Origin: Escherichia phage ECO340P2
Reading direction: 5' to 3' (one strand)
DNA length: 64,000 nucleotides
Sequence record: OP172792
The notes below the pieces were generated by a model that saw only the letters and a program-made list of their open reading frames with translations, searched no databases and was not told the DNA's origin. The translations under genes and the position numbers were made by a program. How positions within the stretch are numbered: the stretch's first letter is position 1; every line of letters begins with the position of its first letter. This document shows positions 1,605 through 25,938 of the stretch, piece by piece.

Positions 1605-2579
1605 ATGCAACTTGGTTTCCCAATTATTGATGTAGTTGTTTTAGTTGGTATTTTAGCATTGTCTATTGGTATCGATTTCTTTGGTCATAAAGAAAATAAA
1701 GAAATTGGAATCAAATCTGCTTTGCTTTGGTCTGTTTTTTGGATTGCTTTAGCTTTAGGGTATTACGCATTCATTTGGGTAGAACATGGTAAAGAATTTG
1801 CCGCGCTTTTCCTAAGTGGTTATGTGTTGGAAAAGAGTCTTTCTGTAGATAACCTAATGGTGTTCATGGCAATTTTTGCAAGCTTTGGAATTAAAAGCAC
1901 ACATCTCCAACATAAGATCTTACTTTGGGGGATTGCAGGAGCCATTGTCTTCCGAGGTATTTTTGTTGCAGCAGGCACCGCTTTGTTTAACCTTCATTGG
2001 TCGGTCCAAGTGTTGTTTGGTCTGATTGTAGCTTGGTCTGCCGTTGCTATTATCAAAGGGGGTGACGAAGAAGAGGATATTGATTACTCTAAACATTGGG
2101 CTGTTCGTTTAGTAGGTAAAGTTCTGCCTATGCACAATGCACTGGATGGTGAAAAGTTCATTACTATTAAGAATAGTATTAAATATGCAACCCCTGCTCT
2201 TCTTTGTGTGTTTGTTATTGAGCTTACAGATATTGTCTTCTCTTTTGATTCAGTTCCGGCTGTGATTGGTGTGACACAAGAACCTCTGCTAGTTTATTCT
2301 GCAATGCTGATGGCTGTTCTTGGCCTACGTGCACTTTTCTTTGTGTTAAGTGTAGCTGTGAAATATTTGGTTCACTTAGAGAAAGCTGTTGCTGTGGTTC
2401 TGGTGTTTGTTGGTGCTAAACTTATGTATCACCCGTTCGGTGAAACACTTCATGCCAAGTGGTCATTCCTCCCGCATGATATCTCTCCTAACGTAAGTTT
2501 AATGATTGTTCTAGGCACATTAGCTCTTGGTGTTATTGCAAGCTTTATCTTTCCTGAAAAAGAAGAAGCCACTGTTTAA
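1605..2579 (+). CDS. terC: TerC-family integral membrane protein
   Basis: Multi-pass hydrophobic protein carrying the TerC hallmark LEKSLSVDNLMVF; strong RBS GAGAGGAG upstream; followed by a terminator. Confidence 0.85.
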   Translation: MQLGFPIIDVVVLVGILALSIGIDFFGHKENKEIGIKSALLWSVFWIALALGYYAFIWVEHGKEFAALFLSGYVLEKSLSVDNLMVFMAIFASFGIKSTHLQHKILLWGIAGAIVFRGIFVAAGTALFNLHWSVQVLFGLIVAWSAVAIIKGGDEEEDIDYSKHWAVRLVGKVLPMHNALDGEKFITIKNSIKYATPALLCVFVIELTDIVFSFDSVPAVIGVTQEPLLVYSAMLMAVLGLRALFFVLSVAVKYLVHLEKAVAVVLVFVGAKLMYHPFGETLHAKWSFLPHDISPNVSLMIVLGTLALGVIASFIFPEKEEATV

Positions 2580-2585
2580 TAGATG

Positions 2586-2610
2586 AGCCTCCTTCGGGAG
2601 GCTATTTTAT
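2586..2610 (+). terminator. Rho-independent terminator after terC
   Basis: AGCCTCC-TTCG-GGAGGCT followed by ATTTTAT. Confidence 0.75.
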
Positions 2611-2621
2611 AGGAGAGACTT

Positions 2622-2972
2622 ATGAGTAATTTTGATGAAATTCAAGAACTTGTTTGGGATTTATGTGGTGATGTGGATTACGTTTCGGACTATCTTTCAA
2701 AAGTTTACCCTGGGGTAAGCGTTATGATTGTGACAAAAGATCCAATTAACTTACCTCCTAATGTGGTAGCTTGTTGTGGAAGTGGTTCAGGAGAAGTGGA
2801 GCCTGTATCTCGTTGGGAATTAACTAAAGCCGTTTCAAAACGAAACGGTGAAGTTTTGAATATTGATATCGAGCAAATATGGACTTCTCCAGCAGCCAAA
2901 TGGAATGATCCAAATGGTTGGGATTTGTTCTTTTGGGATAATGAAACTGATGATGAGGTATTTTTAAAATGA
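2622..2972 (+). CDS. Hypothetical protein
   Basis: ORF track; AGGAGAG RBS; no recognisable motif. Confidence 0.5.
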   Translation: MSNFDEIQELVWDLCGDVDYVSDYLSKVYPGVSVMIVTKDPINLPPNVVACCGSGSGEVEPVSRWELTKAVSKRNGEVLNIDIEQIWTSPAAKWNDPNGWDLFFWDNETDDEVFLK

Positions 2973-3214
2973 AATACTTGTTGGTTGTGTTTGAAAATAT
3001 TTGTTTTGCAATAGGTTTGTTTGTTGTAATTTTTGTATTGACAAGCGTAATCAACGGCAGTAAAGTGAGTTTATACCGAGATGGAGAGCAGCTTTATTGC
3101 TTCTCTGGAGATTTCAAACACAGATGTATTAATAGTCAAAACGAGGAAAGCAAATATGAAAAAACTAGCCCTGATTTTAATTGGTTGTATCTTTTTAACA
3201 GCTTGCGAGGATGA
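2969..3214 (+). CDS. Possible small single-TM protein (uncertain; overlaps next gene)
   Basis: ATGA start/stop overlap with preceding ORF; N-terminal hydrophobic helix LLVVFENICFAIGLFVVIFVL; overlaps the lipoprotein start by about 59 nt, so may be spurious. Confidence 0.25.
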   Translation: MKYLLVVFENICFAIGLFVVIFVLTSVINGSKVSLYRDGEQLYCFSGDFKHRCINSQNEESKYEKTSPDFNWLYLFNSLRG

Positions 3215-7485: not shown

Positions 7486-8280
7486 ATGTCCGAGAAAATC
7501 AGCCTGAAAAAACGTCAAGAAAACCTTGCTTTCTCTCTGAAAAAGAATAAGAACCTGAATGAAGGTAAGATTGTTCTTCGTGTAGCATGTGCTCTAGATA
7601 TTTCTGGTAGTATGCATGGTCTATATGCTCGTGGAGTAGTGAGTGATTTTGTAGGTAAACTGCTCCCTTTTGGTATGCTGTTCGACGATAATGAACAAAT
7701 TGATATGTGGGCCTTCAATACAAGTTCTCAAGAGCTTACTCCAGCAACAGCAGACGTTTACGATGATTATGTTGGTAAATGTATGCGTAATGTTCGTATC
7801 GGAGGTGGAACAAATTACGCCCCTGTAATGGCAGATATCTACGATGAGTATTTTGGCACTGTTACCAAATATATTACCACTAAACAAGTGGTACAAGAGG
7901 AGGCTCCAAAGAAAGGCTTCTTTAATCGTCTGCTTGGTAAAACTGAAACAGTATCTGTAGAGCGTGAAAAGGTTGTAGCTGTATCTGAACCAGGTGCTGA
8001 CGTTACCCCTGGTGTTGTATTCTTCCAGACGGATGGTGAGAATGGTGATCCTAGTGCTGTTCGTCGTCTTATTGAAGAGAATAAGAATAAACCTATTTAT
8101 TGGTTCATGGTTGGCGTCGGTAATGAGAAGTTTGGCTTCCTGAAAGAACTGGCAAATGCTTATGATAATGTTGGTTTTATTGGCATTAAAGATTTAGACT
8201 TGACAGATTCAGAGCTTTATGACAAACTCTTATCTGAAGAGTTCGGAGAGTGGGTTGTTAAAGTAGGTGCTAAAAAATGA
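7486..8280 (+). CDS. vWA (MIDAS) protein with TerD-like N-terminal head; TerF/TerY-like
   Basis: N-terminus MSEKISLKK...FSLKK mimics the TerD start; LRVACALDISGSM is a vWA MIDAS DxSxS motif. Confidence 0.65.
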   Translation: MSEKISLKKRQENLAFSLKKNKNLNEGKIVLRVACALDISGSMHGLYARGVVSDFVGKLLPFGMLFDDNEQIDMWAFNTSSQELTPATADVYDDYVGKCMRNVRIGGGTNYAPVMADIYDEYFGTVTKYITTKQVVQEEAPKKGFFNRLLGKTETVSVEREKVVAVSEPGADVTPGVVFFQTDGENGDPSAVRRLIEENKNKPIYWFMVGVGNEKFGFLKELANAYDNVGFIGIKDLDLTDSELYDKLLSEEFGEWVVKVGAKK

Positions 8281-8525
8281 TCGACGAGCTTGCCTCTCAA
8301 GTCGTAGAAAATTATTGGCGCGAGAGAGAAGCTTTCATTATGCGCAGTCTCAAAGAATATTTCATTGGGACTGTGCGGATGGAAGATATTGTAAGTAGAG
8401 TAGAGATTCATGTATGGCCTGATTATGAAGAATGGGTTGACAAAGAAAATGAAAATGCTATAATTCTTCGTATATACAAACCGGAGATAACATTAGGAGG
8501 AAGAAGTGTTAAACTTCGAAATTGA
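8277..8525 (+). CDS. Hypothetical protein
   Basis: ORF track; ATGA overlap with upstream gene. Confidence 0.4.
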   Translation: MIDELASQVVENYWREREAFIMRSLKEYFIGTVRMEDIVSRVEIHVWPDYEEWVDKENENAIILRIYKPEITLGGRSVKLRN

Positions 8526-8775
8526 TGAGCAAAAAATAAATAAACGATGCCTTACCATTAAAGATTTGGATGTAGGAGATACTTTCGTCTATGAAAATGC
8601 ATTTGACGAAAATGGTTTAGACCTTAGTGAAGTCATTGTTTATTTAAAAGTAGATGATGGGGAAAATGATTATTCTGCTGTAGAATTAAACCATCATGCA
8701 CAATTAGTAGCAATCCAAAACACATCTAAGCTTTTGGAAGTAGAATTGACTGTAACTGGTATTACACTTAAATAA
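8506..8775 (+). CDS. Small protein, paralog B of the duplicated pair (partner of terD)
   Basis: GTG 8506 preceded by AGGAGG; shares DLDVGDTF..Y and L.VELTVTGITLK motifs with ORF 7212..7484. Confidence 0.5.
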   Translation: MLNFEIDEQKINKRCLTIKDLDVGDTFVYENAFDENGLDLSEVIVYLKVDDGENDYSAVELNHHAQLVAIQNTSKLLEVELTVTGITLK

Positions 8776-8790
8776 TAGAGGAGACAAAAG

Positions 8791-9393
8791 ATGACTGATA
8801 AAATTTCCCTGAAAAAAGGCTCTAGCGAAAAAATTTCCCTGAAGAAAGTTGCTCCGGCTCTGAAAGAACTGCGCCTGGAATTCTCTTGGAAATCTGATTC
8901 TAAACTGGATCTGGATGTAAGTGCACTGGTTTGTCGTCATAATGCCGCTGGCAATCCTGAAATGCTGTCTGCACGTCATCTGGTTTGCTATGCTAACAAG
9001 TTTGATCCTGAACGTTCTACCTTTGCTGGTGACGATGTTCGTGATGGGACTGGCAGCATGGAGCAGATTGATATTACTCTGGCTAAAATCTCTCCCGATG
9101 CACAAGAGATTGCCTTTGTTCTGACCATTGATGATGATACAGGTCTGAAACGTTTTGGTCATGCTTCTGAAGGTATGCTTAAAATCTTCGACTCCGAGTG
9201 TAATGTGGAAATTCTGGATTTTGACTTCCTGGCTCCTGAAGTAGCTGGCAACACAATCTGCCACGTGGCTTCCTTGGTTCGTGAAGATGGTGAATGGAAG
9301 CTGAAAGCATATGGTGTAGGTAAAGCTGGTCTGGATATTTGTGATGTGGTGATGGCCTTCGGTGGTAAAAAAGAATGGTATGAATGTCCATAA
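8791..9393 (+). CDS. terD: TerD-family protein
   Basis: Collinear with remembered enterobacterial TerD: ISLKKGSSEKISLKK, LDLDVSALVC, GDDVRDGTGS..IDITL, FVLTIDD and GEWKLKAYGVGKAG all match. Confidence 0.9.
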   Translation: MTDKISLKKGSSEKISLKKVAPALKELRLEFSWKSDSKLDLDVSALVCRHNAAGNPEMLSARHLVCYANKFDPERSTFAGDDVRDGTGSMEQIDITLAKISPDAQEIAFVLTIDDDTGLKRFGHASEGMLKIFDSECNVEILDFDFLAPEVAGNTICHVASLVREDGEWKLKAYGVGKAGLDICDVVMAFGGKKEWYECP

Positions 9394-14153: not shown

Positions 14154-15932
14154 GTGTCGCACATTATAACTAAATATGGATTTGATGTTGATCTTAGCAA
14201 GGAAGGACATACAGGTTGTCCGCGCTGCATGAAAAATGGCAAGGATCGCTCTCGTAATAACCTGATGGTTTATGGATTAGATTCTAATGGAGAGCATAAA
14301 GGTGCTAAGTGCTTTGCGTGTGAATACACTATTCCTAGCGTAGAATGGTTACGAGAAAATGGTGAAGTTTTAGAAGAAGAGGAGGAGATTGTGGGTTCGG
14401 AATTTAATAAACAGATTCATCGTAAAATTGTTCAAGAAACATCAACCAACCCACGTGGTTATCGAGGCATTAAAGAAAAAGTTTCATCTTTCTATGGTGT
14501 TCGTTATGAATACCGTCAGGAAGGGGATCAGATGGTAGTAGAAAGCTGTTTATATCCAACTACTATCGGTAAAGAATTGGTTGGTTTCAAGCGTCGTATT
14601 CATCCTAAAGACTTCAGTAAGCCTATTGGTCAAGTAGGTAAAGATGTAGATCTTTTTGGACAAATTCGTTTTGCAGACCGTTCTCATACTGTTGTAATTA
14701 CAGGTGGTGAACACGATGCTCTGGCAGCTTATCAAATGCTGTCTGAAAACTTGGATAGTAAATATGAGCTTCCAGCAGTAGTAAGTGGCACAACTGGTGA
14801 AACCAGTATGTATAAACAAGTTCAGGCACAATATCCTTTCTTTGAAAAATTTAAGAAAATTATTGTTTGCATGGATAATGACAAAGCAGGTAATGAAGCA
14901 TTTGAAAATATTGTTAAGGTGCTGCCTCGTAACAAAGTATACCGTATGCAGATGGACCTTAAAGATGCCAATCAGTATCTGGAAGAAGGTCGTGCAAAAG
15001 ATTTCGTAAAAGCTTTTTGGAGTGCTCGTCTGTACACACCAGCAGGTGTTTATGCTTCCAACGTCTTGTATGAAGCTGCATTAGAATGCTTGGAATCCAA
15101 GATGATTACCTTGCCTCCTTTTATGCGTGTTGCTGCAAATATGCTGGGTGGTGGTTTAGTAGAAGAAGAGATTACAGTTATCCTGGCAAAGACTAGTATC
15201 GGTAAAACTTTGATGGTGAATGAGATCACCAAACATATTATCGTTGCGCACCCAGAACATACCCTAGGTATTCTGTCCTTGGAAGCAACTTATAAGAAAT
15301 ATTCTCGTAACCTGTTGTCCTCTTTCCTACACATTCCTCTACACAGGAAAACACCTGAAGAGAAATTTCAAATCTTGGAAGAGAATAAAGAAAAAATCCT
15401 AGATTTTTACGAAAGAGAAGATGGATCACCACGTTTTTATGTGTGTGATGATCGTGGAGCAGATGTGGAGTCTATCAAAGAAAAAGTTTTGGAGATGATC
15501 ATCTATTTTGGAGTAACAATTCTTGTTATCGACCCTTATTCTGATTTGCTTTCTGGTATGGATGTTCAAGCCCAGGAAGAGTTAGCAACATGGTTGAAGC
15601 GTATCATGAAAGAATATGCTATAACTATTATCGTCATCTCACACGTTAAGAAATCAGCTAATGGTGGCAATGAACACTTAACAGAAGACGATGCAATGGG
15701 TAGTAGTTTCTTGGCTAAAGGTGCTGGTATTACATTGGCTTTGGAACGAGATAAAGCTGCTGAAGACCCTGTAGAACGCAATACAACTCATTGCTTTATC
15801 CTAAAAAACCGTGAGTTCTCGGAAACTGGTCCGGCAGGGCAGTTTTACTATGACATTAGAACTGCAACTCTGCACGACAAAGAGCAGTATTTCAACAATC
15901 CTGCTAATTTGCCTACGGATAGCAACTACTAA
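14154..15932 (+). CDS. Bifunctional DNA primase-helicase (T7 gp4-like)
   Basis: GTG start after CAGGAG; N-terminal zinc ribbon (CPRC...CFAC), TOPRIM-like IVCMDNDKAGNEAF, DnaB-type Walker A AKTSIGKT and Walker B VLVIDPYSD. Confidence 0.8.
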   Translation: MSHIITKYGFDVDLSKEGHTGCPRCMKNGKDRSRNNLMVYGLDSNGEHKGAKCFACEYTIPSVEWLRENGEVLEEEEEIVGSEFNKQIHRKIVQETSTNPRGYRGIKEKVSSFYGVRYEYRQEGDQMVVESCLYPTTIGKELVGFKRRIHPKDFSKPIGQVGKDVDLFGQIRFADRSHTVVITGGEHDALAAYQMLSENLDSKYELPAVVSGTTGETSMYKQVQAQYPFFEKFKKIIVCMDNDKAGNEAFENIVKVLPRNKVYRMQMDLKDANQYLEEGRAKDFVKAFWSARLYTPAGVYASNVLYEAALECLESKMITLPPFMRVAANMLGGGLVEEEITVILAKTSIGKTLMVNEITKHIIVAHPEHTLGILSLEATYKKYSRNLLSSFLHIPLHRKTPEEKFQILEENKEKILDFYEREDGSPRFYVCDDRGADVESIKEKVLEMIIYFGVTILVIDPYSDLLSGMDVQAQEELATWLKRIMKEYAITIIVISHVKKSANGGNEHLTEDDAMGSSFLAKGAGITLALERDKAAEDPVERNTTHCFILKNREFSETGPAGQFYYDIRTATLHDKEQYFNNPANLPTDSNY

Positions 15933-16464: not shown

Positions 16465-17259
16465 TTGAGCAAGTTGAACACACTTGATCAATATTACACT
16501 AACCCCGCTTATGCGGGGTTCTTATGTGATAAGATCAAAGAAATTTTTGGAGAGGAAGCTAACTACGTAGAACCATCTGCGGGAGAAGGAGCTTTCTCTT
16601 CTTGTTTTAAAAACATAACTTCTTTTGATATTGACCCTAAGTTTGAAGATTGTATTGAGGCAGATTTTTTAGCCCAATCTGTTGAGTCTGTTGGTAGTGT
16701 AACTGCTTTTGTCGGTAATCCTCCATTTGGAAAAAATGCTAGTCTTGCCATTAAATTCTTTAACCATTGTGCTGAAATGCTAGATAACGAAGGTGGTATT
16801 TGTTTTATCTTGCCTCGCACATTTCAAAAAATCTTTTTTGCACACAAACTAAATCCCCACATGCATCTTCTTTACGAAGAAGAATGTCCAAAAGGATCTT
16901 TTATTCTTCATGGAGAACCTTGGGATGTTCCTTGTGTATTCCAGATATGGATTAAACGCAACGAGAAGCGTTCTCCCGTTGTTTTAGGAGAAAATCGACT
17001 ATTTGTATTAGGCAACAGTAAAGACTACGACATAGCCGTTAGGAGAGCGGGAGCAAGTGCAGGTAAAGTGTTATCAGAAGAAGATTCTTTATCTGAAGCG
17101 TCTACCTATTTTTTAAAAGCCTTGACTTCTGATCTTAAAACGCGTATCATTGAGGCTTACCCGTTACTTAAAGCTGAAGCTAGTAAAACTGCGGGAGTAA
17201 GAAGTTTAAGTTTAAAAGAACTTCAGTGGGTTCTGGAGAACATTAGAAAGGAGGAATAG
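16465..17259 (+). CDS. DNA methyltransferase (amino-MTase, likely N6-adenine; gamma-type motif order)
   Basis: TTG start after AAGGAGG; motif I-like EPSAGEGAF precedes catalytic NPPFG; N-terminal DQYYTNP. Confidence 0.55.
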   Translation: MSKLNTLDQYYTNPAYAGFLCDKIKEIFGEEANYVEPSAGEGAFSSCFKNITSFDIDPKFEDCIEADFLAQSVESVGSVTAFVGNPPFGKNASLAIKFFNHCAEMLDNEGGICFILPRTFQKIFFAHKLNPHMHLLYEEECPKGSFILHGEPWDVPCVFQIWIKRNEKRSPVVLGENRLFVLGNSKDYDIAVRRAGASAGKVLSEEDSLSEASTYFLKALTSDLKTRIIEAYPLLKAEASKTAGVRSLSLKELQWVLENIRKEE

Positions 17260-20200
17260 TGAGTAAGTTTACATGGGATATTGAAGCAAACGGATTGTTG
17301 AATAATGACACTATTGATTATTTGGCTAGTCCTTATCGTCTCAAAGACACATTTCAAATGCACTGTATTGTCTTAGAGAACCATGAAACAGGAGAAATAG
17401 TAGCTTTCCACGATGGCCCTAAATACATTTTTGATGGGCGTCCTTATGAAGAATCAGATGGTAAATACACGTATGTTCTTAAAGAGTATGTGGCGCAAGA
17501 TTACACACATTTTCAACTAAAAGATTTCCCAGACTTTATTAATCATGAAGGTTATTTTCAAGACAAGCCGGAATATCTGGTTGAAATGGCTGTGGCACAT
17601 AACGGTATCAACTACGACTGGTTGGCTACAAAACTGTTTTACGGATTGGATTACAGTGTTAAATATAATACATGGGGTAAAAGCAAGGTAAAACTTATTG
17701 ACTCCTTGATTTTGAGTAAAGTGTTGAACCCAGATCGAAAGATTGAGGGCAAATCAGGACATAGCTTGGCAGCACTTTCTCGAAAGGCAGGTGGTGATGT
17801 AAAAATAGATTTCCGTAAAGAGATTCCAGAAGAAGATCGATTTAAGACTTTTGCTGCGGATATGCTTTATTACTGTATCTATGACAACAAAGCCAATACG
17901 AGCGTATATAATTACCTTATGGAAGAATGGGGTGATTATGATAAATGGGAAGGTCCGTTTGAACTTGAACAACGTGTAGCAGACATTATTACACGCCAGG
18001 AACACCGTGGGTTTGCTTTTAACATGAAGCAAGCAGAAGAGAACCTTGCTTTTTTGGATGCCGAAATGGAGCGTCTTCGTTTACTCGTTGAGCCTATTTT
18101 GCCACCTAAGCCAGCAACAAAAGGTTATCTTAAGGCTTTTATCCCACCTAAGTTGCAAATTAAAAAGAACTTAGAACCAACTAACCATATGATCAATTTT
18201 GCTAAGAAACATGATGGTCATTTGGAAGAGAGAGATGGGGACTGGTGGTTAGTTATGTTGGGGAAAGAGTGGAAACTGCCAGTTGCAGCAGACGAACCTT
18301 TATGTGATCCTCATATCCCTGCAACATTGAATGATACAACCCATATTAAAAACTGGCTTGTAGGTTTAGGTTGGGTACCATCAGAATATAAAGATAAAGA
18401 CTTGACTCTTAAATCTGGCACCAAGATTAAAAAGAGTGAGGAAGAACTTCAGAAAGGTATTCGAGCTTACGTTGAGCAAACTCTATCTTCTAATTTTTGT
18501 CAGGATCGTTGTGATCACCTTGAGTGCACACCGGAAACCTTAGAAAGGAAAATTCAAGAGCGTATAGCAAAAGGTAAAGGTCGCGGTCTTAAAGTGTTGA
18601 CTAACCCATGTTTTACCAAAGGTCAGGAAAAAGAAATTTGTCCTAACCTGCAAGCTTTGGGTGAGAAATTTCCTTATGCTACACAGATTGTAGAATACTT
18701 AACGTATAAACATCGTAGGAACTCTATTTTAGGTGGTGGTGCTGATTGGGAAGAAGACGAAGAAGATCAAGAATACGATAAAGGTTTCTTAGCCGCAGTA
18801 AGGGCGGATGGTCGTATTCCTACCCCAGCCGCTACATGTGATGCTGCAACCTCTCGTATGAAGCATAGGTCTGTCGCTAATATTCCTCGTGTTACATCTT
18901 TGTTTGGATGGGAGATGCGTAACCTGTTTGGTGTGGAGGTTCCTAAATACTTCCAGATCGGCTACGACTTCGACTCTTTGGAAGCAAAAATTGAATCACA
19001 CTACTGTGTGCCGATGGATGCTCAAGCTTTGACTCGTAAAGGTTGGGTAGGATATCACGACCTGAAGGAAGGGGATGAGATTTTAGGGTACAATGCTGAA
19101 ACAGGTCTGAAAGAATGGACTAAAGTAAAAGGTAAGGTCTTCTATAAAAATAGTAAGACGTTTGAGATTAAAGGGAAATCACACACTTACCGTGCAACAG
19201 CAGATCACCGTTGGTATGTTAATACCCGTAGTAAAGGGAATACTTATGTGCCTAAAGTCAGAACAACTGCCGAGCTTTGCACAGGAGATAACATTATTTG
19301 TAATGCTCCATTTAATATGGAACAAGATCAGGTAAATAGTTTAACTTCTGTTCAACAAGGTAAATGGGATGTTCCGTGGGTAGAACGTGTAGTTAATATG
19401 TCTCATGCCGAGCGTGTAGCTTTCTTGGAAGGTTTCTTGATTGCAGATGGTTACTGGCACGAACATAAACAAAAACCTGTTTGGCGTTGGGCGCAGAACC
19501 CAGGTGAACTTTTTGAAGCAGCTTTAACTGCCTCGTACCTGGTGCATGGAGGCAATATCTCTGTAGCTTTCAATACAAAAGAGCAGAAAGTAAAAGTGGC
19601 AACATTGACTAACCGCTCTCACATTCCTGTTCAAAGTTTGACTATTGAAGAGTGGGGTGTAGAGGATGTTTGGTGTCCACAAACAGAACTTGGTACGTGG
19701 GTCATGCGTCAGAAAGACTGCATTACCATCACAGGAAACTGTTGGCGGTACGAGCCGGAGCCACACGAGTATTGTAACGCTCTGTTGTTAGAGAAACCTA
19801 ATGATGTTCACACAATGATGGCAAAACGTATCACTGAAACTATCGGACGTAAATTTGAACGTAGTCCTGCTAAATCTGTTAAGTATGGTATTACCTATGG
19901 TGCACAAGCCGACAAGGTTGCTAAAACAATTGGTAGCGATAAGTTTACAGGTCAATTAGTGTTTGATGCTTTCTGGGAAGCTGCATTCCCATTGGCGCGT
20001 CTTAAAGAACGTTTAAACGATTTCTGGGTTAAGACTGGTAAACAATATGTTTTGGGTATTGACGGTCGTAAGGTTCCTACTCGTTCTGCTCACGCGATTC
20101 TTAACTCTCTGTTCCAAAGTGGTGGGGTTATCTGTGCTAAACGTGCAATGGTTATTTATGACGACATGATCGAAGAAGAAGGACTAAGTGTTGACTTCTT

Positions 20201-20591
20201 TAAAGATGACTGGAAGAATAAAGACTTCGTGCAACAAATGATTGCATATCACGATGAAGCCCAGCTTGAAGTTTCTCGTAACCTTGTAGAATTTAAATGG
20301 TTTTCACCTGAATCATTAGGTTGGAAGAAAGTAGACGATCCTGAAGAACAAAAGAAAATTGATAAAGAATGCCTTGCTAAAGTTGAAGAATGGAAGCATA
20401 ATAAGGAAAAAGAGACGGGACAAATTTGGGCTAACATTCATGAATCTCCCAAAGGTGGATGGTTTACAGCCTATAGTCGGGCAGGTGAACTTGCTGCCTT
20501 AGCTGTTACTAAGGCTGGAGAATTTTACAATCTTAATGTTCAGCTTACTGCCGGATATGATGTGGGTAATTCTTGGGCGTCCTGTCACTGA
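17259..20591 (+). CDS. Family A DNA polymerase with 3'-5' exonuclease domain, interrupted by an intein
   Basis: Exo I WDIEANGL; motif A DFDSLEAKIESHY; after the insertion DVHT, motif B RSPAKSVKYGITYGAQ and motif C IAYHDEAQ. GTG start after AAGGAGGAA. Confidence 0.85.
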   Translation: MSKFTWDIEANGLLNNDTIDYLASPYRLKDTFQMHCIVLENHETGEIVAFHDGPKYIFDGRPYEESDGKYTYVLKEYVAQDYTHFQLKDFPDFINHEGYFQDKPEYLVEMAVAHNGINYDWLATKLFYGLDYSVKYNTWGKSKVKLIDSLILSKVLNPDRKIEGKSGHSLAALSRKAGGDVKIDFRKEIPEEDRFKTFAADMLYYCIYDNKANTSVYNYLMEEWGDYDKWEGPFELEQRVADIITRQEHRGFAFNMKQAEENLAFLDAEMERLRLLVEPILPPKPATKGYLKAFIPPKLQIKKNLEPTNHMINFAKKHDGHLEERDGDWWLVMLGKEWKLPVAADEPLCDPHIPATLNDTTHIKNWLVGLGWVPSEYKDKDLTLKSGTKIKKSEEELQKGIRAYVEQTLSSNFCQDRCDHLECTPETLERKIQERIAKGKGRGLKVLTNPCFTKGQEKEICPNLQALGEKFPYATQIVEYLTYKHRRNSILGGGADWEEDEEDQEYDKGFLAAVRADGRIPTPAATCDAATSRMKHRSVANIPRVTSLFGWEMRNLFGVEVPKYFQIGYDFDSLEAKIESHYCVPMDAQALTRKGWVGYHDLKEGDEILGYNAETGLKEWTKVKGKVFYKNSKTFEIKGKSHTYRATADHRWYVNTRSKGNTYVPKVRTTAELCTGDNIICNAPFNMEQDQVNSLTSVQQGKWDVPWVERVVNMSHAERVAFLEGFLIADGYWHEHKQKPVWRWAQNPGELFEAALTASYLVHGGNISVAFNTKEQKVKVATLTNRSHIPVQSLTIEEWGVEDVWCPQTELGTWVMRQKDCITITGNCWRYEPEPHEYCNALLLEKPNDVHTMMAKRITETIGRKFERSPAKSVKYGITYGAQADKVAKTIGSDKFTGQLVFDAFWEAAFPLARLKERLNDFWVKTGKQYVLGIDGRKVPTRSAHAILNSLFQSGGVICAKRAMVIYDDMIEEEGLSVDFFKDDWKNKDFVQQMIAYHDEAQLEVSRNLVEFKWFSPESLGWKKVDDPEEQKKIDKECLAKVEEWKHNKEKETGQIWANIHESPKGGWFTAYSRAGELAALAVTKAGEFYNLNVQLTAGYDVGNSWASCH
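19005..19739 (+). mobile_element. Intein (about 245 aa) in DNA polymerase, with a LAGLIDADG-like motif
   Basis: Starts with Cys right after motif A; block-B-like TADHRW; LEGFLIADGYW resembles LAGLIDADG; ends ...ITITGN followed by Cys +1. Penultimate Gly instead of His is non-canonical. Confidence 0.55.
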
Positions 20592-22268: not shown

Positions 22269-23201
22269 ATGTCCGTAATTAATACTGAAACTGATCGTAA
22301 AGGCAAAACCGTAACTTATGCAACTGGTATCGTAGACTACGTTAAACTGGATAAATTCGCTGAACCTAAAACTTTCCATTGGGAAGGAAAAACGATTGTT
22401 TCAACTCACCGAGCTTCTCTTGTTCTGAAAGAGAAAGGTGCTAAACCAGATGAGAAAGGTGTTTGGATTTCTCTTGGTGACATTGAACTGAAAGAAGGTT
22501 ATGAAAACCTGCAAGTCAAAGAAGGTGATAATTGGATCACTATTGAAAAAGGTGTAGAAGTAAGTATTGATATTGATCGCGTTGATAATAAAGGCGGTAA
22601 AACTTACTACAATACTAAAAAATCTCGTATTACAGTATTGTCTACCGAGGGTGTTCAGAAGTCTAACAAATCTTCTGGCAATAAAGGTTCCAACGATGCT
22701 GCTCCTAAGCAATCCTATAAAAAACGTGATACTGTAGGTCTGGAAACTGGTCACGCAGTAAATGGTGCACTGGAACTGATTCGTAATGGTGTTAAAGGCG
22801 ATGCTTTCGATATCGCTGGGGTTGTTCAATCTGCAACTGTCACGCTGAAATCGGAAATTGCTGAATCTCGTGGCGTTGATATTAATGATTATGATCTTGG
22901 GGCATCTGTTGGTCACGCTATCCTCAATGCTTGTAAAGACCATACCATTAAGACTGTATCTGTAGAAGATTTGATTGACTCTGCTCGTAAAGTTCTAGCT
23001 TTGTCTGATAAAGTTGCTGCTGCCATTCGTGGTTCCGTAGAACAACCTAAGAAAGAAGAGAAGAAAGAAGTTAAAAAGCCTGAACCACAACCAGAACCAA
23101 CTCCAAGCAATCAAGAAGAACCTCCAATGGACTTCGATGATGATATTCCATTTGCTCCTATTGGACTGCAATATGGTCGAAACTTCCTGCATTGCTTCTA
23201 A
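22269..23201 (+). CDS. Putative ssDNA-binding protein carrying a host-SSB-like acidic MDFDDDIPF motif 15 aa before its C-terminus
   Basis: MDFDDDIPF is identical to the E. coli SSB C-terminal tip but is followed by APIGLQYGRNFLHCF; GGAG RBS; last plus-strand gene before a bidirectional terminator. Confidence 0.5.
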   Translation: MSVINTETDRKGKTVTYATGIVDYVKLDKFAEPKTFHWEGKTIVSTHRASLVLKEKGAKPDEKGVWISLGDIELKEGYENLQVKEGDNWITIEKGVEVSIDIDRVDNKGGKTYYNTKKSRITVLSTEGVQKSNKSSGNKGSNDAAPKQSYKKRDTVGLETGHAVNGALELIRNGVKGDAFDIAGVVQSATVTLKSEIAESRGVDINDYDLGASVGHAILNACKDHTIKTVSVEDLIDSARKVLALSDKVAAAIRGSVEQPKKEEKKEVKKPEPQPEPTPSNQEEPPMDFDDDIPFAPIGLQYGRNFLHCF

Positions 23202-23241
23202 GGTTTGTTTCAAGTGCGTGAGGTTGAATGCTGAATAAAAG

Positions 23242-23263
23242 AAAGGAGCCAAATGGCTCCTTT
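23242..23263. terminator. Bidirectional terminator at the convergence of early (+) and late (-) transcription
   Basis: AAAGGAGCC-AAAT-GGCTCCTTT flanked by A-run on one side and T-run on the other. Confidence 0.75.
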
Positions 23264-23265
23264 TC

Positions 23266-25938
23266 TTATTTATAACCCGAAGGAATATTATTATAATCAG
23301 AAAGTTTTGTGCAATACCTGAATAGGTAACTATTAGCTACTCCGCCTAATGTATTTGTTAATGTTGTTCCTGTTCCTGTAAGATTTGTGCATCCACTAAA
23401 GAAAGAAGATAATGCTCCACGTTTACCACAAACAGTTAACCCTGGGTTGTCATTAAAGATTTTATTAAAATCTGTAAGTGCTAAACAACCTTGGAATGTA
23501 GCTGTTAAAGAGGTCACTTTCGTTGGAATATTATCAAACATTCCTGCTGGAACTTCTGCAAGAGAGGTGCAATCTTTAAAGGTGTAAGAATATCTTGTAA
23601 CTTTTGATAGATTCTTAAATAAATCTGAAGGAATAGATGTTAAAGATGTACAACCTTCAAACGTGCTTGACATTGTTGTCATTGAAGGAAATAAAGCATC
23701 ACTGAATAATCCTTCAGGGATAGCTGTCAAACTTGTGCAGCCAGAGAAGATACCGCTTATAGATGTTCCGGTGTAAGATGTGTTACTAAAACAATCAGAA
23801 GTTATTCGTCTTAAGTTAGCACAACCTTTTAAGAATTGTGAGGCTGGGCTTGTAGAATAACCAATTCTGTTGCCGCCCCATAATTCTAAAAGATTTGGAT
23901 TTGCTTCCATAGACACATCAACACTATTCACTACTGAAGCACTTGCAAATTCAATAGCCAGTCTATATTCTCCTGCTGGATAACTATCCACTGTAGAGAA
24001 AGCTTTATTTCTAAATATTACTTTATTTGAAGGTATTACAACGTCATCCACTTTAACTACAAAGTTAGCTGGTGTGACAGTACCCGATAAAATTGGGAAC
24101 GTAATTGCCCCATCTGCCGAGTGGTTGAAATATCCGTTTAGAACCGTTAAACTACTACTCGGAGATGGAGCTAACTCCTTTCCCGCAACAGCATTCACCG
24201 TTAAATAAGAACTATCGGAAGCGGTAACAACACCTTGATACGTAGCTGTGCAACCAATCCTACAACCACCATCACCAACACCAGTTATTACACCAGTTGT
24301 AGGATCTACTGTAGCAACACTAGAATCTGTAGTTGTATATTCAACAACCATGCCAGGTAAGCTTGCTGCCCCTGTTGGCGTTATTTCTGCTACCATTGTT
24401 TGTGTTGTTCCTACATCCATCGCAGATAAGCTAGGGGTGTAAACACTCAATGTTGAAGCATATCCTCCAGAGGTATCTGATAAAGTTGTTCCTTCAGCGT
24501 TTAAGGCTGTCATACCTGCATCAAAACCACCTTCTGCATGGAAAGTCATTAAACCAGTAGATGATATTGTCATGTTTGCAGGGGCAGAAGAAGTGTATTT
24601 AATATTGAAAAGTTTACCTCCTTCTGGGCTAACAGAATGTGTCAACTGTTTAGTTCCACCTACAATACAAACTCCTAAAGAATCTGTAGTTAAGCTAGTT
24701 GCCAGCACATCTCCCGTAATCACAGAGCTTGCTATCGGTGTGAATTTATTATAATTTAGACCACTGTTGAACAGATACGAGGCTTTCCCATCTTTCCAAA
24801 TACCGGAATAATACATATCCCCGTTATAAACGAAAAAGGTTCCTTGATAACCTAATTGGTTAGTAATATCCATATTCAGCGTATGAACGCTTGTGAGCTT
24901 GTTTATATCCCAAGAACCCACTCCTTCAGGTTTAACTGGTTTTCCCACTTGGAGTGGATCTCCGCTCGCAGAATCATACCCCAAACCTAAGTTTGCAGTG
25001 TAGTTCTTACCAATAGCCCACAAGGAATTGTTGATCCCAACGAAAAAAGAGTGGCGGCTTGGTGGAAATTTCCATGTTGAGAAACCTGCTGCAAAGGTAT
25101 CCAGTTTAGTGTAGGTTGTTTCTGTATTAGACCTGACATATAAGTAGTTTACCGTGCCCGTACCACCAGAGGTGTCTCCTACAACTATTGTCTGGGAAAC
25201 TGTATTGATGTAATCTTTGACATACACTGTTTCAGTAGTGGATATCGTGGCATTGACAAAAGCGGTTGTTGTGTTATTATTACCTGCTAAACCTTTACTA
25301 GCTCCACAAACACGCAAGGTTCCCACATTGTTGACATAAGAGCATTGGTTGTAACCTGCATCAAAAGCAACTGCTGAACTTGTTATCTGACGAGGAGTAG
25401 AAACTTCGTTAGTAGTGCTTGCACCTAAACTACCTACTGTGTTTTGACCCGATCCATAAAGAACACCGCTATTCATTAACCAGAGAGTATTGTTATACCC
25501 TCCTTTAACCTCTTTAAGATTGGCTAAAGAAATAGTCCCTGTTATTACAGATGGAAAGCTGGTCCAAGTAGTTACACATGCATCCGTACCACCTGCTGCT
25601 ATAGATCCTACCAACCCTGCTGTCAATCCTGAATATTGCCATCCCCCACTGTTAGTTTTAATAACAAAACAACGATCTGCGGTAAACACATCCGCTACTA
25701 CAGTAGAAGCTAAGTGGAAATTATTGAATCGTGCACTACGAGTTCCATCTGCAATCTCACCAAAGAGGTTTGCGCCTTGAGTAAACAATCTACCATCATT
25801 AAGCAAAATTGCTAAACTGTTGTTAGAATTACCAGCGTTATCTGGGTAATCTAAAGTGATTACTTTTTTAACAATACCTGCTGGCAGAGGAACGACACCA
25901 GTGCTGGTCATAATAGTAAATATTGGAATTGGAAACAT
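23266..25938 (-). CDS. Tail fibre/adhesin with C-terminal BspA-type leucine-rich repeats
   Basis: C-terminal tandem units F.GCTSLT.IP..LF ... FKDCTSLAEVP ... FQGCLALT ... FSGCTNLT fit BspA-type LRRs; last gene of the late strand. Confidence 0.5.
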   Translation of the reverse strand: MFPIPIFTIMTSTGVVPLPAGIVKKVITLDYPDNAGNSNNSLAILLNDGRLFTQGANLFGEIADGTRSARFNNFHLASTVVADVFTADRCFVIKTNSGGWQYSGLTAGLVGSIAAGGTDACVTTWTSFPSVITGTISLANLKEVKGGYNNTLWLMNSGVLYGSGQNTVGSLGASTTNEVSTPRQITSSAVAFDAGYNQCSYVNNVGTLRVCGASKGLAGNNNTTTAFVNATISTTETVYVKDYINTVSQTIVVGDTSGGTGTVNYLYVRSNTETTYTKLDTFAAGFSTWKFPPSRHSFFVGINNSLWAIGKNYTANLGLGYDSASGDPLQVGKPVKPEGVGSWDINKLTSVHTLNMDITNQLGYQGTFFVYNGDMYYSGIWKDGKASYLFNSGLNYNKFTPIASSVITGDVLATSLTTDSLGVCIVGGTKQLTHSVSPEGGKLFNIKYTSSAPANMTISSTGLMTFHAEGGFDAGMTALNAEGTTLSDTSGGYASTLSVYTPSLSAMDVGTTQTMVAEITPTGAASLPGMVVEYTTTDSSVATVDPTTGVITGVGDGGCRIGCTATYQGVVTASDSSYLTVNAVAGKELAPSPSSSLTVLNGYFNHSADGAITFPILSGTVTPANFVVKVDDVVIPSNKVIFRNKAFSTVDSYPAGEYRLAIEFASASVVNSVDVSMEANPNLLELWGGNRIGYSTSPASQFLKGCANLRRITSDCFSNTSYTGTSISGIFSGCTSLTAIPEGLFSDALFPSMTTMSSTFEGCTSLTSIPSDLFKNLSKVTRYSYTFKDCTSLAEVPAGMFDNIPTKVTSLTATFQGCLALTDFNKIFNDNPGLTVCGKRGALSSFFSGCTNLTGTGTTLTNTLGGVANSYLFRYCTKLSDYNNIPSGYK

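What the first reader, a model, noticed from the sequence alone, without database searches (positions are those of the whole stretch)
22269..23201. Host-SSB C-terminal tip MDFDDDIPF embedded internally in a phage ssDNA-binding-like protein
The nine residues that end E. coli SSB and recruit its partner proteins occur here followed by 15 more residues (APIGLQYGRNFLHCF). The phage protein may mimic or compete for host SSB partners, or the extension may mask the tip; a frameshift sequencing error is the trivial alternative.
Basis: seen in the sequence. Interest (0 to 1): 0.45.

Follow-up and report, generated by a model that had tools for sequence, protein, structure and literature searches.

The report
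Conserved cap on phage SSB tail
A phage DNA-binding protein carries the exact partner-recruiting tail of the host's SSB protein followed by 15 extra residues, and this "cap" is not an error: it is a conserved, portable peptide that is present or absent among near-identical phages and sits on many unrelated phage replication proteins, where it should block the tail's normal way of binding.

Summary
ORF 22269-23201 (+) encodes a 310-aa protein whose residues 284-295 (EPPMDFDDDIPF) equal the last 12 residues of E. coli SSB. They are followed by APIGLQYGRNFLHCF.

It is not a sequencing error. Eight Phapecoctavirus isolates and the sister genus Justusliebigvirus (phi92) carry the identical extension. 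Between the two genera the tail differs only at synonymous sites, while the protein body is 68% identical.

The protein is the SSB-like protein of Stephanstirmvirinae (PHROG 4477). It has a predicted OB-like domain, a helical domain and a disordered tail.

The extension belongs to a motif I found described nowhere: [AS]-P-[IVLM]-G-L-[QPM]-[YHF]-x3-4-hydrophobic end. It follows a ...D-x-P-F tip in at least 162 phage genomes. It occurs on six PHROG families of ssDNA-binding(-like) proteins and on T7 gp4-like primase/helicases. Near-identical phages have it or lack it.

One family of HNH homing endonuclease genes repeatedly sits directly after it, starting inside its codons. The window keeps a 21-codon remnant of such a gene.

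Function is inferred only. The cap removes the free C-terminal Phe that canonical SSB-tip pockets need, so it probably insulates or re-routes the tail.

The parts
22269..23201 (+). Gene for the 310-aa SSB-like protein (PHROG 4477), long ('capped') allele
   Evidence: ORF and sequence. PHROG 4477 E=4e-97, no Pfam family. 99% identical to the gene Mt1B1_P17 annotates as 'single-stranded DNA-binding protein'.
22269..22643 (+). N-terminal beta-rich, OB-like domain (aa 1-125)
22734..23027 (+). Four-helix domain (aa 156-253)
   Evidence: AlphaFold2 pLDDT about 95. Only non-specific helical matches. In Bas52_0087 the escape mutations are placed by the authors' AlphaFold2 model at a putative oligomerisation interface (preprint read); not mapped onto this domain here.
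23028..23117 (+). Disordered Lys/Glu/Pro-rich linker (aa 254-283)
   Evidence: pLDDT about 50. Poorly conserved: 52% identity to phi92.
23118..23153 (+). Acidic tip EPPMDFDDDIPF (aa 284-295), identical to the last 12 residues of E. coli SSB
   Evidence: Sequence. E. coli SSB fragments. Profile match to PDB 1eqq/7f2n C-termini.
23154..23198 (+). 15-residue cap APIGLQYGRNFLHCF (aa 296-310)
   Evidence: Identical in phi92 and alia, with synonymous differences only. Consensus motif seen across phage families. Third-position bias 24:16:93.
23173..23238 (+). 21-codon remnant (MVETSCIASKVCFKC|VRLNAE*) of an HNH homing endonuclease gene, in the +1 frame, overlapping the last 9 cap codons
   Evidence: Window 23100-23218 aligns to Mt1B1_P17 L001 6832-6950 (117/119) and 23222-23330 to L001 7383-7491 (107/109), so about 432 nt of the intact gene are missing. 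The intact gene belongs to phrog_2340 'endonuclease', E=9e-49.
23246..23268 (.). GGAGCC-AAAT-GGCTCC hairpin with T-run, a likely bidirectional terminator between the SSB-like gene and the convergent 890-aa tail-fibre gene (23266-25938, -)
   Evidence: Read from the sequence. The same hairpin follows the endonuclease gene in nepoznato.

Best explanation
The 15 residues are a genuine, selected C-terminal 'cap' on the SSB-type acidic tip. Tip plus cap form one portable unit: ...D-[DE]-[IVT]-P-F + [AS]-P-[IVLM]-G-L-[QPM]-[YHF]-x3-4-hydrophobic-x-x-hydrophobic-COOH. Phages attach this unit to very different ssDNA-binding proteins and to primase/helicases. They lose it easily, by a stop or frameshift right after Phe or by cassette replacement.

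Shown: the cap is real, it is older than the split of two genera, and it is the most constrained part of the protein. It is found only after a tip. It is switchable between near-identical phages. In several lineages it is physically coupled to an HNH homing endonuclease gene that starts inside its codons.

Inferred: making the Phe internal removes the free carboxylate that canonical SSB-tip pockets require. The capped tail therefore no longer engages the ordinary tip receptors, whether host SSB partners or, by analogy with T7, the phage polymerase. It instead presents a composite motif with a new hydrophobic C-terminus. That motif either folds back on the tip (the P-x-G turn) or binds a different, probably host-conserved, partner. 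The net effect would be to insulate or re-route phage ssDNA-binding and replisome proteins relative to the host SSB interactome. The endonuclease next door probably helps move the unit between genes by co-conversion.

The confidence of 0.5 is for the whole statement. The shown part alone I put at about 0.9 and the inferred function at about 0.4.
For: Real and selected:
- Identical 23-aa tail in window and phi92 against 68% identity in the body. Synonymous divergence is similar in both (30% against 38% of identical-aa codons differ), so the tail is as old as the body.
- Across seven lineages found through the protein body, differences in the first 8 cap codons fall 24:16:93 on codon positions 1:2:3.
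- The window-versus-phi92 changes are synonymous in the SSB frame but non-synonymous in the endonuclease frame.

Portable:
- 29 of 120 listed homologues carry it.
- It sits on PHROGs 4477, 44 (PF00436 SSB), 2544, 32668, 3284 and 9002, and on DnaB_C primase/helicases of Mydovirus and relatives.
- 162 phage records cover at least 80% of tip plus cap.
- Only 25 of 72,556 plasmid records match, and 24 of these are non-mobilizable.

Always after a tip: 7 of 9 IMG/VR matches to APIGLQYG follow a tip, and the other 2 are chance matches.

Switchable:
- ECO340P1-type Phapecoctavirus stops at DDDIPF through a 1-nt insertion (TTC TGA).
- Bas52_0087 is uncapped, Bas54_0087 is capped.
- KB57 primase/helicase stops at DDDTPF while the otherwise 100% identical BIS47 protein is capped.

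The cap should block canonical binding: E. coli SSB+Gly has no detectable chi binding and is impaired in vivo (PMC3045619). The T7 gp2.5 and gp4 acidic tails dock on the polymerase basic patch (PMC12339929).

No single phage partner: upstream neighbours of capped SSBs are Erf-, Rad52-, RdgC- or YqaJ-like, or none.
Against: No binding or structural evidence exists for any partner or for fold-back. AlphaFold2 leaves the tail disordered and undocked, with pLDDT about 50. A pure mask would not obviously need so conserved a sequence, and the tip stays conserved under the cap, which fits a composite binding motif at least as well. DRT10, which is triggered by the uncapped homologue Bas52_0087, is reported to restrict Stephanstirmvirinae too; the BASEL members I checked carry the cap, so the cap does not obviously evade that defence. 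The second half of the cap varies a lot. In endonuclease-bearing alleles it is also constrained by the overlapping frame.
Confidence: 0.5

Rival explanations
1. Independent short linear motif. The cap is a docking peptide for one specific conserved partner, such as a host replisome or repair protein or the sliding clamp. The tip underneath is only the usual place to hang it, so the cap adds a partner rather than removing any.
For: Strong conservation of A-P-[IV]-G-L-Q-Y over saturated synonymous sites. Presence on both the SSB-like protein and the primase/helicase of the same phages (VIK251, KpS11) mirrors the way T7 uses similar tails on gp2.5 and gp4 for one receptor. The hydrophobic X-small-hydrophobic-COOH end resembles C-terminus-dependent recognition motifs (inference).
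Against: The cap is never seen without the tip. It does not fit the known beta-clamp motif QL[SD]LF (own knowledge; spacing differs). No candidate partner was identified. Contexts range from lambdoid prophages to 150-kb lytic myoviruses, so a phage-encoded partner is unlikely.
Confidence: 0.25
2. By-product of a mobile element. The extension is read-through into the 5' end of a homing endonuclease cassette inserted right after the Phe codon. Its conservation reflects the cassette's DNA (ribosome-binding site, start codon, N-terminal codons), not a peptide function.
For: Endonuclease genes of one family (phrog_2340/1035) lie directly after the cap with their start inside it in Mt1B1_P17 and nieznany, L012, L014, Bas54, lambdoid mEp554, L052, L061 and L064. 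In three lineages the ATG lies inside the CAA-TAT-GG (Q-Y-G) codons. The window keeps a remnant.
Against: The most conserved part (APIGLQY) lies upstream of the endonuclease start, yet it shows 3-periodic, third-position variation in the SSB frame. Most capped genes have no endonuclease next to them: phi92, KB57, Kashira, HK75, epsilon34 and roughly 40 of 48 IMG/VR loci. The endonuclease also sits after an uncapped allele in nepoznato. The tail's synonymous divergence matches the body, so there was no recent transfer.
Confidence: 0.08
3. Degradation or remodelling tag. The hydrophobic C-terminus preceded by basic residues (…RHAIHAI, …KSRIYAL, …SALYA, …CRKAIYAIS) is a C-terminal degron or ClpX-type recognition signal that limits or remodels the phage SSB or helicase.
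For: Resemblance of many variants to ssrA (…YALAA) and MuA (…RRKKAI) C-terminal signals. This rests on my own knowledge of those signals compared with the variants. Easy loss of the cap among relatives fits a tunable dosage device.
Against: It does not explain the invariant APIGLQY half or the strict coupling to the acidic tip. The resemblance is from memory and was not scored against any model.
Confidence: 0.1
4. Sequencing or assembly frameshift in this window that hides a stop directly after DDDIPF.
For: Most Phapecoctavirus orthologues do stop there.
Against: The same 933-nt reading frame occurs in eight independent Phapecoctavirus genomes and the same peptide in more than 50 Justusliebigvirus records. 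The short allele differs by an extra base plus further substitutions, not the reverse.
Confidence: 0.01

Closest known systems
E. coli / gamma-proteobacterial SSB C-terminal tip (SSB-Ct, ...MDFDDDIPF-COOH)
   Same: 12 of 12 identical residues (EPPMDFDDDIPF) after a disordered linker behind an OB-type domain.
   Different: The OB domain is not PF00436 and an extra helical domain is present. The tip is not terminal, being followed by a conserved 15-aa cap. A single added Gly already abolishes chi binding in E. coli SSB.
Bas52_0087, SSB-like protein of Vequintavirus RudolfGeigy, trigger of the DRT10 (UG17) defence (bioRxiv 10.64898/2026.04.29.721553)
   Same: Probably the same family: both proteins end in the FDDDIPF tip, and Vequintavirinae SSB-like proteins (KB57, Bas54) turn up through the shared tail. 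Bas52_0087 itself was not aligned to the window protein. Same order of neighbouring genes, with polymerase upstream. SSB-like fold and FDDDIPF tip.
   Different: Bas52_0087 is longer (408 aa, two OB-like domains according to the authors) and uncapped: it ends ...SFDDDIPF*. The cap is not mentioned in that paper.
Acidic C-terminal tails of T7 gp2.5 (SSB) and gp4 (primase/helicase)
   Same: In Vequintavirinae both the SSB-like protein and the T7 gp4-like primase/helicase end in similar acidic ...D-x-P-F tails, and both can carry the cap. This parallels T7, where both tails dock on the polymerase basic patch.
   Different: The T7 tails end with the aromatic residue itself; no capped form is known to me. 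The primase/helicase in this window (14154-15932) ends ...PTDSNY and has neither tip nor cap.
Free-standing HNH homing endonuclease genes of phages (phrog_2340 / phrog_1035, 'endonuclease VII'-like)
   Same: A small endonuclease gene wedged between conserved genes, overlapping the 3' end of the upstream gene, patchy among close relatives and decaying by deletion.
   Different: The recurrent target position is the end of SSB-tail-bearing genes in unrelated phages. The start codon is embedded in the conserved Q-Y-G codons of the cap. I know of no description of this.

Membership tests
Bacterial-type SSB (Pfam PF00436) | OB-fold domain recognised by the PF00436 profile | tested here: not met
Bacterial-type SSB (Pfam PF00436) | Acidic tip ending in Phe at the extreme C-terminus with a free carboxylate | tested here: not met
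   The tip sequence is present (23118-23153), but 15 residues follow it.
Bacterial-type SSB (Pfam PF00436) | Intrinsically disordered linker between the fold and the tip | tested here: met
   aa 254-283 have pLDDT about 50, are Pro/Glu/Lys-rich and poorly conserved.
Bacterial-type SSB (Pfam PF00436) | ssDNA binding and homo-oligomerisation | not testable with these tools
   Needs biochemistry. Only a monomer model could be made.
PHROG 4477 / Stephanstirmvirinae-Vequintavirinae SSB-like proteins (Bas52_0087 family) | Full-length profile match | tested here: met
   PHROG 4477 E=4.4e-97. 225 homologues with E<=1e-3.
PHROG 4477 / Stephanstirmvirinae-Vequintavirinae SSB-like proteins (Bas52_0087 family) | Conserved position downstream of the T7-like DNA polymerase and next to convergent tail-fibre genes | tested here: met
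   Window ORFs. The same order in Mt1B1_P17, phi92, L010, L012 and L014.
Tip+cap module (proposed here) | ...D-x-P-F immediately followed by [AS]-P-[IVLM]-G-L-[QPM]-[YHF], then 7-10 residues ending in hydrophobic-x-small-hydrophobic, then stop | tested here: met
   DDDIPF-APIGLQY-GRNFLHCF*. Matches the consensus derived.
Tip+cap module (proposed here) | Purifying selection on the peptide in the host gene's frame | tested here: met
T7 gp2.5/gp4-type polymerase-docking tails | The tail binds the phage DNA polymerase through a terminal aromatic residue | not testable with these tools
   Analogy only. Here the terminal residue is Phe310 of the cap, not Phe295.
HNH homing endonuclease (phrog_2340) | Intact zinc-finger N-terminal region plus the HH...N...H catalytic motif | tested here: not met
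   The window keeps only 21 codons, with the interior deleted. The intact relative scores E=9e-49.

The most novel reading that the evidence does not exclude
Tip plus cap is a switch module that phages use to flip their ssDNA-binding and helicase tails between a 'public' state and a 'private' state. In the public state the free DDDIPF-COOH is readable by the host SSB interactome and by SSB-sensing defences. In the private state it is capped. A dedicated family of homing endonucleases, which recognises the tip/cap-coding DNA, carries the module between unrelated genes and phages. Presence or absence of the cap would then be a fast-evolving determinant of host range and defence sensitivity.
Probability: 0.2. 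Interest if true: 0.85.

Novelty: new variant of a known kind. Interest (0 to 1): 0.62.

Why it matters
The free C-terminal Phe of the SSB tip is the accepted key to the whole bacterial SSB interactome, and phage SSBs are now known triggers of several defence systems. A conserved peptide that buries that Phe would be a new layer of control over who reads an SSB tail. It occurs in more than 160 phage genomes and on primase/helicases as well, and it is gained or lost between near-identical phages. It is directly testable with existing natural pairs: Bas52 (uncapped) against Bas54 (capped) in the BASEL collection, KB57 against BIS47 for the primase/helicase, and ECO340P1-type against this phage. 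It also bears on recombineering, where compatibility between SSB tails and annealing proteins limits portability. Finally, it points to a homing endonuclease family that seems to target the ends of tail-bearing genes.

Tried and rejected
- Pfam gave nothing for the protein.
- A PDB sequence search matched only the tail.
- Full-text literature searches for IPFAPIG, PIGLQY, DDDIPFAP, PFPRHAI and similar strings found no paper. Concept searches found no description of a capped tip.
- The HK620 SSB/Sak4 system has a different tail (NDYPPF) and is not this motif.
- The profile search with short tails returned only short fragments, a limit of the tool. The all-against-representatives search was used instead.
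- 'The cap is a phage annealing-protein docking site' was rejected as a general explanation, because neighbours differ (Erf, Rad52-like, RdgC-like, YqaJ-like, none).
- 'The cap arrived recently with the endonuclease from a phi92-like donor' was rejected, because synonymous divergence of the tail equals that of the body.
- A beta-clamp motif and a PIP box were rejected on spacing (own knowledge, not scored).
- No other ORF in the window carries a tip or cap. The window's primase/helicase ends ...PTDSNY.
- AlphaFold2 did not dock the cap onto the protein. Complexes could not be modelled with these tools.
- The DRT10 preprint supplements hold no per-phage plating data with which to compare capped and uncapped phages.
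- Possible short endonuclease remnants after the stop in KB57, Kashira and phi92 were seen by eye only and are not claimed.

Full report
**The observation**

The ORF at 22269-23201 (+) starts at an ATG behind a GAGGAG ribosome-binding site and encodes 310 aa ending ...NQEEPPMDFDDDIPFAPIGLQYGRNFLHCF*. MDFDDDIPF is at 23127-23153. The identity with the E. coli SSB C-terminus covers 12 residues (EPPMDFDDDIPF, 23118-23153), as shown by E. coli SSB fragments and by the profile match to PDB 1eqq. Fifteen residues follow at 23154-23198.

**Where the window comes from, and whether the extension is an error**

The gene is 97-99% identical to Phapecoctavirus genomes (Stephanstirmvirinae, roughly 150-kb E. 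coli myoviruses). Seventy-one records match.

- Ten records, representing seven phages, match over all 933 nt.
- All other listed records match only to position 895. One of them, ECO340P1, annotates a 295-aa protein ending exactly at DDDIPF.

The alignment shows ...CCA TTC TGA TCT TAT TG... in the short allele against ...CCA TTT GCT CCT ATT GG... here. That is one extra base, a stop, and then 9 of 11 matching bases before similarity decays. Both alleles therefore exist in nature, and the short one looks like a frameshifted long one.

The sister genus Justusliebigvirus (phi92 gp156, alia and many others) has the identical 23-residue tail DFDDDIPFAPIGLQYGRNFLHCF. Comparing window with phi92:

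| Segment | aa identity | Identical-aa codons that differ (synonymous) |
|---|---|---|
| Body (aa 1-253) | 68% | 38% |
| Tail (last 23 aa) | 100% (23/23) | 30% |

The tail is as old as the rest of the gene and is its most constrained segment. A sequencing error is excluded. The long allele is most simply ancestral in the subfamily.

**What the protein is**

Pfam finds nothing. PHROG 4477 ('unknown function') matches at E=4e-97, and only the tail hits SSB PHROGs.

An AlphaFold2 model built from 49 homologues gives:

- a beta-rich domain, aa 1-125, pLDDT about 88;
- a four-helix domain, aa 156-253, pLDDT about 95;
- a disordered tail, pLDDT about 50, with the cap not docked.

A 2026 preprint identifies a Vequintavirus homologue, Bas52_0087, as an SSB-like protein with an FDDDIPF tip that triggers the DRT10 defence in connection with ExoI/SbcB. 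I checked that protein: it is 408 aa and ends ...SFDDDIPF*, so it is uncapped.

**The extension is a widespread module**

Among the 120 best homologues nearly all end in an acidic ...D-x-P-F tip, and 29 carry a further 14-17 residues. Examples: APIGLQYGRNFLHCF, APIGLPYGRNFIHCI, APVGLQYARHAIYAV, APIGLQYRELLYAM, SPLGLQYPNHSMYALYA.

The same motif follows the tip of canonical Gln/Gly-rich SSBs:

- prophage fragments from Proteus, Salmonella, E. coli, Klebsiella and Providencia;
- phages HK75, epsilon34, g341c, mEp235, mEpX2, CP-1639;
- Vibrio, Hafnia and Proteus phages.

A profile search of 1.84 billion representatives, followed by PHROG scans, puts the module on PHROGs 4477, 44 (PF00436), 2544, 32668, 3284 and 9002.

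tblastn with the 27-aa tip plus cap finds 211 phage records, 162 of which cover at least 80% of the query. Only 25 of 72,556 plasmid records match, and 24 of those are non-mobilizable, so this is a phage feature.

It also sits on the T7 gp4-like primase/helicase (DnaB_C) of Mydovirus and relatives...GPDDDTPF-APIGLQYAKHAIYVI.

When APIGLQYG is searched in IMG/VR without requiring the tip, 7 of 9 matches follow a tip. The other two are chance matches that are not at a C-terminus.

String and concept searches of 8 million full texts found no description of the motif.

**Selection acts on the peptide**

Seven lineages were found through the protein body, not through the tail. In their first eight cap codons, pairwise nucleotide differences fall 24:16:93 on codon positions 1:2:3, with 85 synonymous against 28 non-synonymous codon differences. 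The window-versus-phi92 changes are silent in the SSB frame but would change residues in the overlapping endonuclease frame.

**The module switches on and off**

| Protein | Capped | Uncapped |
|---|---|---|
| Phapecoctavirus SSB-like | this window, 310 aa | ECO340P1-type, 295 aa |
| Vequintavirus SSB-like | Bas54_0087 | Bas52_0087 |
| Mydovirus primase/helicase | BIS47, KpS8, Mydo | KB57, KPP-1 |

In the Mydovirus case the flanks are 100% identical. KB57 has a stop plus a 155-aa ORF (PHROG 8569) exactly where the cap codons would be.

**The homing endonuclease connection**

In Mt1B1_P17 and nieznany a 164-aa endonuclease gene (phrog_2340, E=9e-49) follows the cap. Its ATG lies inside the CAA-TAT-GG (Q-Y-G) codons, so its first ten codons overlap the last nine cap codons in another frame.

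The same family, in the same place, occurs in:

- two distant metagenomic relatives, L012 and L014;
- Vequintavirus Bas54, and lambdoid mEp554 behind a canonical SSB, both with the ATG in the same Q-Y-G register;
- IMG/VR loci L052, L061 and L064.

The window lacks about 432 nt of this gene. It keeps an in-frame stub, 23173-23238, MVETSCIASKVCFKC|VRLNAE*.

Most capped genes nevertheless have no endonuclease beside them, and nepoznato has the endonuclease behind an uncapped allele. I conclude that the cap is the older, protein-level feature. The endonuclease repeatedly homes to the end of tail-bearing genes and probably spreads or exchanges tails by co-conversion. That last step is inference.

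**How it most likely works**

- Established: the SSB tip binds its partners with the terminal Phe in a hydrophobic pocket and its carboxylate on basic residues.
- Published: one extra Gly on E. coli SSB abolishes measurable chi binding and impairs growth (PMC3045619).
- Published: the T7 gp2.5 and gp4 acidic tails dock on the polymerase basic patch (PMC12339929).
- Seen here: the Vequintavirus primase/helicase and SSB-like protein have similar tips.
- Inferred: a 15-residue cap should stop the tail from being read by canonical tip receptors, whether host or phage, and should present a composite motif with a new hydrophobic C-terminus.

Two observations favour a composite or self-interacting unit, or a host-conserved partner, over a phage-specific partner. 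The only constant companion of the cap is the tip itself. The phage contexts are very diverse.

I could not test binding. AlphaFold2 gives no docked conformation. DRT10 is reported to restrict capped Stephanstirmvirinae as well, so evasion of that particular system is not supported.

**Verdict**

It is one instance of an apparently undescribed, conserved, switchable cap on SSB-type tails, with a decayed homing endonuclease attached. The function remains inferred.

Noticed in passing
window 17259-20591 (+), insertion at 19005-19739: The family-A DNA polymerase gene (1110 aa) carries a 245-aa insertion absent from the Mt1B1_P17 orthologue (865 aa; flanks 579/582 and 283/283 identical). The insertion starts with Cys, ends ...ITITGN followed by Cys, and contains LEGFLIADG. 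It looks like an intein with a LAGLIDADG-type homing endonuclease.
   Followed up: partly
window 23173-23238 (+): A 21-codon in-frame deletion remnant of the HNH homing endonuclease gene that is intact in Mt1B1_P17 (L001 6905-7399). About 432 nt are missing.
   Followed up: yes
L069 (BIS47) 1-1707 against L068 (KB57) 1-1662 and 1672-2139: The T7 gp4-like primase/helicase of Mydovirus ends DDDTPF plus cap in BIS47, KpS8 and Mydo. In KB57 and KPP-1 it stops at DDDTPF, and a 155-aa ORF (PHROG 8569, unknown function) occupies the place of the cap. The flanks are identical.
   Followed up: partly
L018 (Bas54 MaxBurger) 2525-2572 and 2544-3167; L019 (mEp554) 2537-2584 and 2553-3086; L001 6886-6933 and 6905-7399: In three unrelated phages the endonuclease start codon is the ATG formed by the TAT-GGN (Tyr-Gly) codons of the cap. 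The cap's second half is therefore dual-coding in those alleles.
   Followed up: partly
L072 (Bas52 RudolfGeigy) 7982-9208 against L018 (Bas54) 1301-2572: Two phages of the public BASEL collection form a natural uncapped/capped pair for the DRT10-trigger protein. Bas52's primase/helicase ends ...EDDETPF*.
   Followed up: partly
L058 2027-3931 (+) (IMG/VR 3300020046_003745): One ORF joins a complete SU10-type portal protein (PF23899, E=2e-178) to a Gln-rich linker plus tip plus cap. It is either an assembly chimera or a real fusion.
   Followed up: no
L006 (nepoznato) 1202-2089 and 2086-2517: An uncapped allele (…DFDDNIPF*) is followed directly by an endonuclease of the same family with a different N-terminus and a TTG start overlapping the stop. 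The endonuclease therefore does not need the cap.
   Followed up: partly
window 14154-15932 (+): The primase/helicase of this phage ends ...NPANLPTDSNY*, with a terminal aromatic residue but no acidic D-x-P-F tip. This differs from the Vequintavirinae enzymes.
   Followed up: no
search results: Several near-identical genomes are deposited as Campylobacter, Acinetobacter, Pseudomonas or Klebsiella phages (for example A150, ABPW7, PsgM04F, ZCKP1) although they are Phapeco-/Justusliebigvirus-like. The host labels may be unreliable.
   Followed up: no
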